Position numbers: made by a program
Part shown: piece by piece, positions 58,891 to 60,901 of the stretch
How the letters are laid out: the number at the start of each line of letters is the position of its first letter
Position numbering within the stretch: position 1 is the stretch's first letter
From: Octopus sinensis
Taxonomy: Eukaryota
NCBI RefSeq assembly: GCF_006345805.1
Contig: NC_042997.1
Location: 5,766,001 to 5,830,000, forward strand
Length of the DNA stretch: 64,000 nucleotides
Direction: 5' to 3'

Positions 58891-58956
<66 letters not shown>

Positions 58957-60839
58957 CAATTAAGGAACGGCCATAATAGGCCATTCACCCACTAGAAATA
59001 ACAGCCAAAGCTTCTACCGCAAATAAAGATCAATTCCGTAAACAGGAGAAAATTAAAAAAACATTTACCCTGTAATTTCTTGTACGGTATACCGTTTCAT
59101 CCGTTGTTTAATGGTAAACCAACCTAATTAAATTAAATCAAGCCAATCTTCCATAAGCCCTCGGATTCATCAGCAGAAATAGCTCTCGGGACAGATAATT
59201 ACACGAGGCATCTCCAATCTTGCCAAGTCAATATCTGACCTAAAATTTTCAAATCGTCGCACTCGCGCCAAATTTATCGGCAGCAAATAAATATCAGCCG
59301 TCGATTCCATTACGGAATTAACCAAAAAATTCATAATTAATCAATATAGGGTGGCAAGGAAAATTTTGTAGAATTTTATTGCCACCAGCGGCCCAGCGGG
59401 AAAAAAATTAAATAGTCATAGACCATTTTTAAGTTCAACATTAACAATTAAGGAACGGCCATAATAGGCATTCACCCACTAGAACTAACAGCCAAAGCTT
59501 CTACCGCAAATAAAGATCAATTCCGTAAACAGGAGAAAATTAAAAAAACATTTACCCTGTAATTTCTTGTACGGTATACCGTTTCATCCGTTGTTTAATG
59601 GTAAACCAACCTAATTAAATTAAATCAAGCCAATCTTCCATAAGCCCTCGGATTCATCAGCAAGAAATAGCTCTCGGGACAGATAATTACACGAGGCATC
59701 TCCAATCTTGCCAGTCAATATCTGACCTAAAATTTTCAAATCGTCGCACTCGCGCCAAATTTATCGGCAGCAAATAAATATCAGCCGTCGATTCCATTAC
59801 GGAATTAACCAAAAAATTCATAATTAATCAATATTTTCCTTGCCACCCTATATTGATTAATTATGAATTTTTTGGTTAATTCCGTAATGGAATCGACGGC
59901 TGATATTTATTTGCTGCCGATAAATTTGGCGCGAGTGCGACGATTTGAAAATTTTAGGTCAGATATTGACTTGGCAAGATTGGAGATGCCTCGTGTAATT
60001 ATCTGTCCCGAGAGCTATTTCTTGCTGATGAATCCGAGGGCTTATGGAAGATTGGCTTGATTTAATTTAATTAGGTTGGTTTACCATTAAACAACGGATG
60101 AAACGGTATACCGTACAAGAAATTACAGGGTAAATGTTTTTTTAATTTTCTCCTGTTTACGGAATTGATCTTTATTTGCGGTAGAAGCTTTGGCTGTTAT
60201 TTCTAGTGGGTGAATGGCCTATTATGGCCGTTCCTTAATTGTTAATGTTGAACTTAAAAATGGTCTATGACTATTTAATTTTTTTCCCGCTGGGCCGCTG
60301 GTGGCAATAAAATTCTACAAAATTTTCCTTGCCACCCTATATTGATTAATTATGAATTTTTTGGTTAATTCCGTAATGGAATCGACGGCTGATATTTATT
60401 TGCTGCCGATAAATTTGGCGCGAGTGCGACGATTTGAAAATTTTAGGTCAGATATTGACTTGGCAAGATTGGAGATGCCTCGTGTAATTATCTGTCCCGA
60501 GAGCTATTTCTTGCTGATGAATCCGAGGGCTTATGGAAGAGTGGCTTGATTTAATTTAATTAGGTTGGTTTACCATTAAACAACGGATGAAACGGTATAC
60601 CGTACAAGAAATTACAGGGTAAATGTTTTTTTAATTTTCTCCTGTTTACGGAATTGATCTTTATTTGCGGTAGAAGCTTTGGCTGTTATTTCTAGTGGGT
60701 GAATGGTCTATTATGGCCGTTCCTTAATTGTTAATGTTGAACTTAAAAATGGTCTATGACTATTTAATTTTTTTCCCGCTGGGCCGTTGGTGGCAATAAA
60801 ATTCTACAAAATTTTCCTTGCCACCCTATATTGATTAAT

Positions 60840-60901
<62 letters not shown>

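What the first reader, a model, noticed from the sequence alone, without database searches (positions are those of the whole stretch)
58952..60841. Young hammerhead-ribozyme element (489-nt unit) inserted as a four-ribozyme palindrome in (TA)n: candidate cephalopod retrozyme/circRNA system
Seen: each unit holds a full type I hammerhead with an 8-bp stem I, CUGAUGA, a 5-bp stem II with a 58-nt loop, GAAA, a 4-bp stem III with a UAUA loop and a GUA cleavage site. Unlike minimal Penelope hammerheads, stem III can form within one monomer. The copies are almost identical, and no RT or nuclease is encoded. Established: tandem hammerhead repeats (non-LTR retrozymes, newt satellite 2, Penelope pLTRs) self-cleave into monomers with 5'-OH and 2',3'-cyclic phosphate ends that can circularise. 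Inference: cuts after 60115 and 60604 would release a 489-nt RNA. The arms exceed one unit and do not start at the cleavage site, which fits rolling-circle reverse transcription of a circular template by a Penelope RT in trans.
Basis: partly seen in the sequence, partly recalled or inferred. Interest (0 to 1): 0.9.

Follow-up and report, generated by a model that had tools for sequence, protein, structure and literature searches.

The report
Hammerhead-ribozyme repeat inserted head-to-head in (TA)n
A non-coding 489-base repeat carrying a self-cleaving hammerhead ribozyme motif sits as two mirror-image partial tandems inside a TA microsatellite, which looks like a fresh insertion of a known kind of ribozyme-bearing retroelement (animal retrozyme) made by Penelope-type machinery.

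Summary
The palindrome is real. The right arm (59835-60842, +) holds 2.06 units and the left arm (58952-59834, -) holds 1.8 units of a 489-nt repeat. Both lie between (TA)n tracts, and the copies differ at 7 singleton positions. Three of four copies carry a complete type I hammerhead. My descriptor found 3 hits against 0.02 expected in shuffles. The hammerhead fold is the minimum-energy fold locally and in the circular monomer. Rfam RF00163 scores 20.5 bits, below its gathering score of 34, and only in targeted searches. The fourth copy has a 1-nt deletion in stem I and loses both the fold and the Rfam match. The "58-nt loop" is an extended hairpin, and the 10.1-11.1 pair is A-U rather than G-C. 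The unit is non-coding. Element 3' ends face outward and the 5'-truncated ends meet at the centre. Together with the (TA)n target, this matches published Penelope-like-element insertion signatures. Best reading: a non-LTR retrozyme, that is, a non-autonomous Penelope derivative. This is a new member of a known kind. Self-cleavage, circular RNA, genome-wide copy number and the "cephalopod" label stayed untested.

The parts
58878..58953 (.). Left (TA)n flank (about 38 repeats), the target microsatellite. It overlaps the element end by 2 nt (AT).
   Evidence: TRF; junction read; overlap length
58952..59834 (-). Left arm, 883 nt, ribozyme sense on the - strand. From the centre outward it runs unit 224-489, then a 487-nt copy of unit 1-489, then unit 1-131. 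The element 3' end abuts the left flank.
   Evidence: blastn of the unit against the window; register and variant table; the repeat finder
59835..59849 (+). 15-nt asymmetric centre. It belongs to the right arm only and forms the loop between the innermost perfectly complementary arms. The junction has a 2-nt AT overlap at 59833-59834, or a 5-of-6 match over 59829-59834.
   Evidence: the repeat finder I8; centre strings compared with the unit
59835..60842 (+). Right arm, 1008 nt, ribozyme sense on the + strand: unit about 209-489, unit 1-489, unit 1-238. The element 3' end abuts the right flank with a 3-nt overlap (TAT).
60017..60123 (+). Hammerhead 1 (type I), with the predicted cut after 60115.
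   Evidence: RF00163 20.5 bits, full model 1-45; minimum-energy fold is the three-way junction, z = -3.97; descriptor hit
60506..60612 (+). Hammerhead 2 (type I), with the predicted cut after 60604.
   Evidence: RF00163 20.5 bits; descriptor hit
59562..59668 (-). Hammerhead 3 (type I), with the predicted cut between 59570 and 59569.
   Evidence: RF00163 20.5 bits; descriptor hit
59075..59180 (-). Hammerhead 4, impaired by a 1-nt deletion (unit position 396) in the 5' strand of stem I. The nominal cut lies between 59083 and 59082.
   Evidence: variant table; no RF00163 match at E<=1; minimum-energy fold is not a hammerhead; missed by the descriptor
60116..60604 (+). Predicted 489-nt monomer released by hammerheads 1 and 2. 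The circular fold is -136 kcal/mol with 62% of bases paired, and the hammerhead junction is retained.
   Evidence: z = -4.23 against 100 shuffles; 0 of 100 shuffles fold as well
59083..59569 (-). The 487-nt monomer of the left arm. Its release would need the impaired hammerhead 4.
60840..60899 (.). Right (TA)n flank, about 30 repeats.
   Evidence: TRF

Best explanation
The locus is one recent insertion of a non-coding, hammerhead-bearing short retroelement. This is an animal 'non-LTR retrozyme', that is, a non-autonomous relative of Penelope-like elements (PLEs). It landed in a (TA)n microsatellite. Shown: the unit is 489 nt, AT-rich and non-coding, and carries a type I hammerhead motif that is also the predicted minimum-energy fold. 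There are two arms of 2.06 and 1.8 units lying head-to-head. Element 3' ends join the TA tract with 2-3 nt of overlap, and the 5'-truncated ends meet at the centre with a 2-nt overlap and a 15-nt spacer. Inferred: a PLE-type reverse transcriptase/GIY-YIG endonuclease supplied in trans cut the AT-rich target. A DNA 3' end then primed reverse transcription at an internal AU-rich site of a multimeric or circular template, which gave a copy longer than one unit. The inverted arm arose either by priming from the second DNA end or, more likely given the centre, by the nascent strand folding back on itself. Host repair finished the job. Transcripts that run outward from the centre through the right arm contain two intact sense hammerheads. 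[quoted passage not shown] A host tRNA-type ligase could circularise that RNA, and the circle or an uncut multimer is the template for the next insertion.
For: Ribozyme. The core CUGAUGA...GAAA, three helices and a GUA site are present in 3 of 4 copies. The descriptor gave 3 hits against 0.02 expected, and 0 of 100 shuffles gave a hit with stems this long. RF00163 matches over the full model at 20.5 bits in 3 of 4 targeted searches. The hammerhead junction is kept in the minimum-energy fold of the 121-nt piece (z = -3.97) and of the whole circular monomer (z = -4.23). Retrozyme features. The unit is tandem and non-coding, with 36.8% GC and a self-paired circle. These match the features listed in Cervera & de la Pena 2020 (PMC7229834, sections read). 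PLE-type insertion. Craig et al. 2021 (PMC8557442, passages and section 11 read) describe partial tandems, an adjacent inverted 5'-truncated copy, and a (TA)n bias in the Naiad and Hydra clades. All three are seen here. Perfect (TA)n tracts cover only 3.6% of the window. Frangieh et al. 2024 (PMC11167929, main text read) show in vitro that a PLE protein cuts AT-rich DNA, extends both strands and starts reverse transcription internally on the RNA. The element ends overlap the TA flank by 2 and 3 nt. Only 18.8% and 4.5% of the 489 possible end positions reach those lengths, which by my arithmetic gives a joint chance of about 0.015. A 2026 preprint (10.64898/2026.07.22.740005, abstract and section 14 read) relates vertebrate retrozymes to PLE pLTRs.
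Against: The Rfam score of 20.5 is below the gathering score of 34. The match is absent from the whole-window and 2.1-kb searches. By my arithmetic from E=0.0064, a score this high is expected by chance roughly ten times per gigabase, so it is not significant genome-wide on its own. The 10.1-11.1 pair is A-U, whereas G-C is called highly conserved (PMC4209133 passage). From memory, I believe this substitution lowers activity. Stem II carries a 58-nt insertion, and no loop-loop tertiary contacts are recognisable. One of the four ribozymes is damaged. The unit is longer than the 170-400 nt RNAs and 150-450 bp repeats reported for retrozymes. No other copy of the unit lies in the 64 kb. No reverse transcriptase was found: 0 of 20 scanned ORFs have a Pfam match. 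The 30-40-bp PLE 'tail' is not evident; the two 3' ends differ by 107 nt in unit register. Frangieh et al. found that hammerhead cleavage was not needed for insertion in vitro, and that initiation was not homology-guided. Expression, cleavage and circularisation are untested.
Confidence: 0.6

Rival explanations
1. The palindrome arose at the DNA level. A short tandem of a hammerhead satellite, however it first arrived, sat in a fragile (TA)n tract. It was then duplicated in inverted orientation by fold-back or template-switching repair or replication, with no reverse transcriptase involved in making the inverted arm.
For: The two arms end at the centre only 15-17 nt apart in unit register (unit 224 against 207-209), with a 2-nt AT overlap and a 15-nt spacer. 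A fold-back predicts this. For two independent cDNAs it has about a 7% chance, by my arithmetic of (2x17+1)/489. The outer junction of the left arm also has an AT microhomology. Satellites of about 500 bp that carry hammerheads are known, for example cave-cricket pDo500 (PMC2837043 passages).
Against: The inverted arm stops cleanly at the TA tract and does not copy unique flank. Its outer end (unit 131) differs from that of the right arm (unit 238), so two precise switches are required. The same fold-back can be made by a reverse transcriptase on its own nascent strand, and published PLE insertions regularly show exactly this inverted 5'-truncated partner. All 7 differences are singletons, so there is no signal either way.
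Confidence: 0.2
2. The unit is simply the pseudo-LTR of an autonomous Penelope-like element. The locus would then be a heavily 5'-truncated PLE insertion (a solo-pLTR array), not an independent retrozyme family.
For: PLE pLTRs carry hammerheads. PLE insertions are 5'-truncated, partially tandem, inverted and biased toward microsatellites. Xenopus retrozyme families are sister to PLE pLTRs.
Against: Each arm repeats with a 489-nt period and has no ORF sequence between the repeats. A partial tandem of an autonomous PLE would repeat with the period of the whole element: full-length Naiads are 3.4-4.4 kb and Hydra elements under 3 kb. Metazoan PLE hammerheads are described as minimal forms lacking helix III, whereas this one has a 4-bp helix III.
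Confidence: 0.1
3. Artefact or chance. The palindrome would be an assembly artefact (a chimeric fold-back read at a TA repeat), or the hammerhead-like motif would be a chance match in an ordinary tandem repeat.
For: Craig et al. note that such tandem and inverted structures cause assembly problems. Three of the 7 copy differences are 1-nt deletions in two-base runs, a typical long-read error type. The Rfam score is sub-threshold.
Against: The arms are unequal and embedded between different unique flanks on the two sides. The window has no N. The motif has all core bases, an 8/5/4-bp helix set not reached in any of 100 shuffles, and is the minimum-energy fold in two contexts.
Confidence: 0.08

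Closest known systems
Metazoan non-LTR retrozymes (Cervera & de la Pena 2020, PMC7229834; coral, mussel, axolotl)
   Same: A type I hammerhead lies in a short, non-coding, low-GC tandem repeat. There is no LTR, PBS or PPT. The monomer is predicted to be a stable, self-paired circle. As stated for invertebrate retrozymes, helix III can form in a single motif.
   Different: The unit is 489 nt, against reported RNAs of 170-400 nt and repeats of 150-450 bp. Each arm holds only about 2 units. The arrangement is head-to-head inverted in (TA)n, and the words 'inverted' and 'microsatellite' occur nowhere in that paper's main text. Helix II carries a 58-nt hairpin extension and an A-U 10.1-11.1 pair. 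Expression was not shown here.
Penelope-like elements and their insertion architecture (Craig et al. 2021, PMC8557442; Frangieh et al. 2024, PMC11167929)
   Same: The locus shows partial tandems, an adjacent inverted 5'-truncated copy, a (TA)n or AT-rich target, a hammerhead in the repeated part, and internal initiation of reverse transcription, with element ends that do not coincide with the ribozyme cut.
   Different: There is no RT/GIY-YIG ORF. The repeat period is 489 nt rather than a whole element. No 30-40-bp tail is recognisable. The hammerhead has a formed helix III, unlike the minimal metazoan PLE variants.
Hammerhead satellites: cave-cricket pDo500 (about 500 bp), newt satellite 2, Schistosoma Sm-alpha
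   Same: The repeat unit is about 500 bp, with one type I hammerhead per unit that processes multimeric transcripts to monomers (pDo500 passages; newt and dimeric mode).
   Different: Those are large arrays; pDo500 makes up about 5% of a genome. Here there are four copies at one site with clear insertion junctions. No sequence relationship was tested.
Twin priming / 5' inversion of LINE-1 insertions
   Same: An inverted segment is created during target-primed reverse transcription, with microhomology at the internal junction.
   Different: L1 inversions join two different parts of one RNA. Here both arms are the same periodic sequence and meet almost in register, which points to a fold-back.

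Membership tests
Hammerhead ribozyme, type I (Rfam RF00163) | Conserved core: CUGANGA between helices I and II, GAAA between helices II and III | tested here: met
   Present in 4 of 4 copies by direct reading. Aligned to the full model 1-45 in 3 of 4 copies.
Hammerhead ribozyme, type I (Rfam RF00163) | Three helices around the core, with helix I open (type I), and an NUH cleavage triplet | tested here: met
   Helices of 8/5/4 bp and a GUA triplet in 3 of 4 copies. The minimum-energy fold gives the junction. The fourth copy fails. GUA occurs in some natural hammerheads, according to the abstract of PMC1636495 as listed.
Hammerhead ribozyme, type I (Rfam RF00163) | Score at or above the curated gathering threshold (34 bits) | tested here: not met
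   20.5 bits in targeted 131-nt searches. Nothing at gathering thresholds in the whole window, and no hammerhead at E<=10 in 2.1 kb. The alignment shows that the large helix II insertion and the A-U 10.1-11.1 pair are where it departs from the consensus.
Hammerhead ribozyme, type I (Rfam RF00163) | G10.1-C11.1 pair at the base of helix II | tested here: not met
   The pair is A-U here. G10.1-C11.1 is called highly conserved in PMC4209133. Compensatory changes at these positions occur among pDo500 copies.
Hammerhead ribozyme, type I (Rfam RF00163) | [quoted passage not shown] | not testable with these tools
   Needs in vitro transcription and a cleavage assay.
Metazoan non-LTR retrozyme | Type I hammerhead in every unit of a short tandem repeat (150-450 bp) | tested here: inconclusive
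   3 of 4 units have an intact motif. The unit is 489 bp, just above the published range. Each arm holds only about 2 units.
Metazoan non-LTR retrozyme | Non-coding, GC below 50%, no LTR/PBS/PPT | tested here: met
   The longest stop-free stretch is 67 aa in a unit dimer, and GC is 36.8%. The unit is one uniform repeat with no terminal-repeat structure. PBS and PPT were not searched for specifically.
Metazoan non-LTR retrozyme | Monomer predicted to be a stable, highly self-paired circle | tested here: met
   The circular minimum free energy is -136 kcal/mol, z = -4.23, with 62% of bases paired. Nineteen control 489-nt segments from the window average -107 and range from -174.5 to -69. The unit is therefore well folded but not extreme.
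Metazoan non-LTR retrozyme | Expressed as linear and circular monomer RNA; many dispersed genomic copies | not testable with these tools
   No transcriptome or eukaryotic genome search was available. No second locus lies in this 64-kb window.
Penelope-like element (autonomous) | ORF with a telomerase-like RT and a GIY-YIG endonuclease | tested here: not met
   The unit has no ORF. 0 of 20 window ORFs of 99-187 aa have any Pfam match. The scan was not exhaustive, and degraded or spliced ORFs would be missed.
PLE-type insertion signature | Partial tandem plus an adjacent inverted 5'-truncated copy (head-to-head) | tested here: met
   compared with the description in PMC8557442.
PLE-type insertion signature | Microsatellite or AT-rich target, (TA)n for the Naiad and Hydra clades | tested here: met
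   (TA)38 and (TA)30 flanks. Perfect TA tracts cover 3.6% of the window. Literature.
PLE-type insertion signature | A 30-40-bp 'tail' extension at one end | tested here: inconclusive
   The two 3' ends lie at unit 131 and unit 238, 107 nt apart. With a single locus, no tail can be defined.

The most novel reading that the evidence does not exclude
This locus is a nearly unmutated footprint of a retrozyme integration, and it carries every structural hallmark of Penelope-like-element integration: a (TA)n target, copies longer than one unit, an inverted 5'-truncated partner, and internal AU-rich start sites. If the family is active, it would give insertion-site evidence that circular or multimeric hammerhead RNAs are mobilised by a (TA)n-targeting PLE enzyme. 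It would also suggest that the inverted partner is made by fold-back of the nascent cDNA. The 2020 review says retrozyme repeats carry no motif that reveals which machinery moves them (PMC7761336 passage). As a by-product, read-through transcription of the whole palindrome would give a perfect hairpin RNA of about 880 bp, a possible source of small RNAs or an editing substrate.
Probability: 0.35. Interest if true: 0.6.

Novelty: new member of a known kind. Interest (0 to 1): 0.4.

Why it matters
Animal retrozymes are abundant sources of small circular RNAs, but how and by what they are inserted is inferred mainly from co-occurrence with Penelope-like elements and, more recently, from sequence relatedness to pLTRs. 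A young insertion with readable junctions shows where copying started, where it stopped and how the inverted arm was joined, which old degraded arrays cannot show. If more insertions of this family have the same structure, they would tie retrozyme mobility to a particular class of (TA)n-targeting enzyme and to a fold-back step. They would also supply a well-defined 489-nt candidate for circular RNA assays. As a single locus with a sub-threshold ribozyme score and no expression data, it remains an ordinary though tidy example of a known kind.

Tried and rejected
Rfam at gathering thresholds on the whole window found nothing.

Rfam at E<=10 on 58850-60950 gave 25 matches, none a ribozyme. The strongest were plant miRNA and sRNA hairpin models such as MIR8007, MIR859 and MIR1435, all far below their gathering scores and all centred on 59728-59955. 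I reject them as artefacts of the perfect hairpin at the palindrome centre.

I replaced it with a descriptor script.

A DNA-transposon or foldback-element reading was rejected. The outer termini lie at different unit positions (131 and 238), so they are not inverted repeats of each other in register.

The bacterial promoter and terminator scan is irrelevant for this eukaryote-like sequence and showed no enrichment: 9 promoter-like sites against 13.1 expected.

An exact-match scan of prokaryotic genome contigs with a stretch of the ribozyme gave 0 matches. That collection holds no animals, so it says nothing about copy number.

Pfam on 20 ORFs gave 0 matches. Of the 26 ORFs of at least 120 aa, I scanned 11. 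I left out the other 15 because they overlap (TA)n arrays, but I did not test them.

For literature on cephalopod hammerheads or retrozymes I ran four searches. One search found only PMC8557442 holding all three terms. One search was badly designed, swamped by cephalopod papers and uninformative. In one search, 4 papers hold both terms and 2 were listed; neither describes a cephalopod retrozyme. One search also found no such description. The giant-squid genome paper reports 235 'hammerhead 1' Rfam loci and Penelope elements (passages). I found no description of cephalopod retrozymes in these searches. Subscription journals and supplements were not searched.

Searches for the effect of an A-U 10.1-11.1 pair gave no quantitative statement. 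My view that it lowers activity is recalled from memory.

Lunse et al. 2017 (PMC5785218) is not held.

Sequence strings from the ribozyme occur in 0 papers.

The following stayed unchecked. The source organism could not be identified. Supplementary files of the papers are closed; Craig et al. files S1 and S2 and the retrozyme papers' supplementary figures may hold cephalopod PLE families or hammerheads that bear on this. No complex prediction, protein structure prediction or covariance model was run. With four near-identical copies, covariation cannot be assessed.
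Full report
WHAT IS THERE. The sequence between two TA microsatellites is built entirely from one 489-nt unit. The microsatellites lie at 58878-58953 (about 38 repeats) and 60840-60899 (about 30 repeats). Tandem Repeats Finder reports period 489, 2.1 copies and 99% matches at 59829-60842. 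The repeat finder reports direct repeats spaced 487-489 nt on both sides, and inverted repeats 98-100% complementary. The innermost pair is 59713-59834 / 59850-59971, with 15 nt between them. I numbered the unit from the predicted ribozyme cut, so unit 1 is 60116, and ran blastn of the unit against the window. The right arm (59835-60842, + sense, 1008 nt) runs unit about 209-489, then 1-489, then 1-238. The left arm (59834 down to 58952, - sense, 883 nt) runs unit 224-489, then 1-489 (487 nt), then 1-131. No other part of the 64-kb window matches the unit; the best other hit is 22 nt at E=0.09. The window has no N and is 32.9% GC.

COPIES. Aligning the six register pieces gives 7 variable positions, each private to one piece. 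There are four substitutions (unit 85, 103, 183, 426) and three 1-nt deletions in two-base runs (unit 101, 345, 396). No variant is shared between tandem neighbours or between mirror partners. All copies therefore descend from one sequence in a star-like way, and the differences do not tell the models of origin apart. The change at unit 426 breaks a pair in the helix II extension and is not compensated.

THE RIBOZYME. On the + strand the motif reads as follows: stem I 60017-60024 with 60116-60123 (8 bp), CUGAUGA at 60025-60031, a 5-bp stem II (60032-60036 with 60095-60099), GAAA at 60100-60103, a stem III of A15.1-U16.1 plus three G-C pairs closed by UAUA, a GUA triplet, and the cut after 60115. 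The minimum-energy fold of 60010-60130 is exactly this three-way junction (-32 kcal/mol, z = -3.97, 0 of 200 shuffles as stable).

I wrote a descriptor requiring CUGANGA, stem II of at least 3 bp, GAAA within 140 nt, stem III of at least 3 bp ending in U then H, and stem I of at least 4 bp. It finds 3 hits in the window on both strands, all inside the element. One hundred dinucleotide shuffles of the window gave a mean of 0.02 hits. Two shuffles gave one hit each, and none had stems of at least 8/5/4 bp.

Rfam is less favourable. It finds nothing at gathering thresholds and no hammerhead at E<=10 in the 2.1-kb region. Only when 131 nt are searched alone does RF00163 (Hammerhead_1) match over its full length, at 20.5 bits against a gathering score of 34, E=0.0064. 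This happens for three of the four copies. By my arithmetic that E-value corresponds to roughly ten chance matches per gigabase for this one family. The Rfam score alone would therefore not stand genome-wide. The case rests on the score together with the tandem-repeat context, the long helices and the fold.

The alignment shows two departures from the consensus: the large insertion in helix II and an A-U pair at 10.1-11.1. Cervera & de la Pena 2014 call G-C at that position highly conserved (PMC4209133 passage). I recall that this substitution lowers activity but found no figure for it.

The fourth copy (outer left, 59075-59180) has lost one base of the stem I 5' strand (unit 396). It fails the descriptor, has no RF00163 match at E<=1, and folds differently. 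The locus therefore holds three intact ribozymes and one impaired one. Only the right arm has two intact sense ribozymes able to release a monomer (60116-60604, 489 nt).

Stem III alone is a weak hairpin (-2.9 kcal/mol). Its ten central bases are fully palindromic, so two copies could form a 12-bp duplex (-18.8 kcal/mol). Both the monomeric and the dimeric modes described for animal hammerheads are open.

THE UNIT AS AN RNA. The circular 489-nt sense monomer folds at -136 kcal/mol. Shuffles average -109.9, giving z = -4.23, and 0 of 100 shuffles are as stable. Sixty-two percent of bases are paired, and the hammerhead junction is retained. The antisense circle is weaker (-93.1, z = -3.34). Nineteen control 489-nt segments of the window average -107 and range from -174.5 to -69, so the unit is well folded but not extreme. 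It encodes nothing: the longest stop-free stretch in a dimer is 67 aa in sense and 41 aa in antisense. The sense strand has runs of 6-7 T in each unit. By general knowledge these would stop RNA polymerase III, so multimeric transcripts would need polymerase II or read-through. This is an inference.

THE JUNCTIONS. Both arms have their element 3' ends outward and their 5'-truncated ends at the centre. At the right flank the unit is followed through position 238 and shares its last 3 nt (TAT) with the TA tract. At the left flank it is followed through position 131 and shares 2 nt (AT). Over all 489 possible end positions, 18.8% would share at least 2 nt with an alternating TA tract and 4.5% at least 3 nt. 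By my arithmetic the joint chance is about 0.015. Neither end coincides with the ribozyme cut.

At the centre the left arm ends at 59834 and the right arm's uninterrupted match begins at 59833. This gives a 2-nt AT overlap, or 5 of 6 over 59829-59834. Fifteen nt of the right arm (59835-59849) have no partner. No target-site duplication can be read in a TA tract. Perfect TA tracts cover 3.6% of the window, so landing in one by chance has about that probability.

HOW IT MOST LIKELY AROSE. Priming of reverse transcription from a cut DNA end places the element's 3' end at the flank, with the copy growing toward the RNA's 5' end. Outward 3' ends on both sides are therefore what copying from both ends of a double-strand cut predicts. 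Frangieh et al. 2024 showed in vitro that a purified Penelope-like protein cuts AT-rich DNA, extends both the top and the bottom strand, and starts reverse transcription at internal sites of the RNA (main text). Craig et al. [quoted passage not shown] They report a (TA)n bias in Naiads and in almost all Hydra families, and hammerheads in all clades except Naiad and most Chlamys (passages and section 11). The locus shows all of these features except the RT/EN ORF and a recognisable 30-40-bp tail.

One detail refines the picture. The two arms stop only 15-17 nt apart in unit register. Two independent cDNAs would do so with about 7% chance, by my arithmetic. A nascent strand that folds back on itself with a short loop and copies itself predicts exactly this. 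I therefore favour the following sequence. One strand was primed at the right flank and copied 2.06 units. It folded back at an AT microhomology and copied 1.8 units of itself. It was then joined to the left TA end at another AT microhomology. The same geometry could come from DNA-level template switching after a simple tandem insertion, and I cannot exclude that.

Copies longer than one unit need a periodic template. This could be a circular monomer copied round and round, as in the retrozyme model (PMC7761336 passages; PMC4209133 discussion), or an uncut multimeric transcript. Frangieh et al. found unprocessed RNA to be the main substrate in vitro, and hammerhead cleavage to be dispensable for insertion. 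The present data do not separate the two.

COMPARISON WITH KNOWN SYSTEMS. The element works like, and most likely is, an animal non-LTR retrozyme. It has a type I hammerhead in a short non-coding low-GC tandem repeat, a self-paired circle, and a helix III that can form in a single motif, as reported for invertebrates. It differs in three ways. Its unit length is 489 nt, against reported RNAs of 170-400 nt and repeats of 150-450 bp. It has a helix II extension. It lies in an inverted arrangement. The cave-cricket pDo500 satellite (463-505 bp, one hammerhead per unit) is the closest in unit size.

The proposal that PLEs mobilise retrozymes is in print. A 2026 preprint relates Xenopus retrozymes to PLE pLTRs. 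Neither the main text of that preprint nor that of the 2020 paper mentions inverted arrangements or a microsatellite target for retrozymes. Cervera & de la Pena 2014 did note paired minimal hammerheads 100-700 bp apart on opposite strands in Schistosoma.

For cephalopods I found only an automated count of 235 'hammerhead 1' loci and Penelope elements in the giant squid, and Naiad remnants in cephalopods. I found no described retrozyme. Whether this window comes from a cephalopod could not be tested.

CONTEXT. The window is AT-rich and full of microsatellites, with 38 TRF rows and 59 perfect TA tracts. None of 20 ORFs of 99-187 aa has a Pfam match. No helper enzyme is visible nearby, which is expected for an element mobilised in trans.

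VERDICT. The interpretation as a retrozyme-type element is the best-supported one, at confidence about 0.6 for the whole chain. Confidence is higher for 'hammerhead-bearing non-autonomous retroelement' and lower for rolling-circle copying. It is a new member of a known kind. Its value lies in the clean junctions, which link a retrozyme insertion to the Penelope-type integration signature and point to a fold-back step. Interest is 0.4.

Noticed in passing
window 59728-59955: Sub-threshold Rfam matches to plant miRNA precursor and bacterial sRNA models all sit on the perfect hairpin at the palindrome centre. Examples are MIR8007 at 89 bits against a gathering score of 195, MIR859, MIR1435, MIR2599 and WsnRNA46. 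They are hairpin artefacts, not genes.
   Followed up: partly
window 58901-58902 and 60864-60865: Each TA flank has one phase slip, AA on the left and TT on the right. The two slips are mirror images of each other, 50 and 22 nt from the element ends. With two possible slip types this has about a 50% chance, and I drew no conclusion (read).
   Followed up: no
window, whole: Microsatellite density is very high: 59 perfect (TA)n tracts of at least 12 nt (3.6% of the window), plus several (TAA)n/(AAT)n arrays of 80-195 nt. Arrays lie at 12496, 19994, 20659, 26869, 36346 and 52989. Of the ORFs of at least 120 aa listed, 15 overlap the (TA)n arrays listed by TRF.
   Followed up: partly
window 996-1193: A 99-bp tandem repeat with 2.0 copies and 84% matches. 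It is unrelated to the hammerhead unit.
   Followed up: no
window 60212-60233, 60701-60722, 58965-58986 (-): Each unit holds an 8-bp GC-rich hairpin followed by a T-rich stretch, which the bacterial terminator scan picked up. It is also a hairpin in the circular fold. Two of the 7 copy differences (unit 101 and 103) fall in it.
   Followed up: no
window 37270-37528 and 3897-4008: Longer-period repeats (51 nt and 42 nt) are embedded in degenerate TA arrays. I did not examine them for inserted elements.
   Followed up: no
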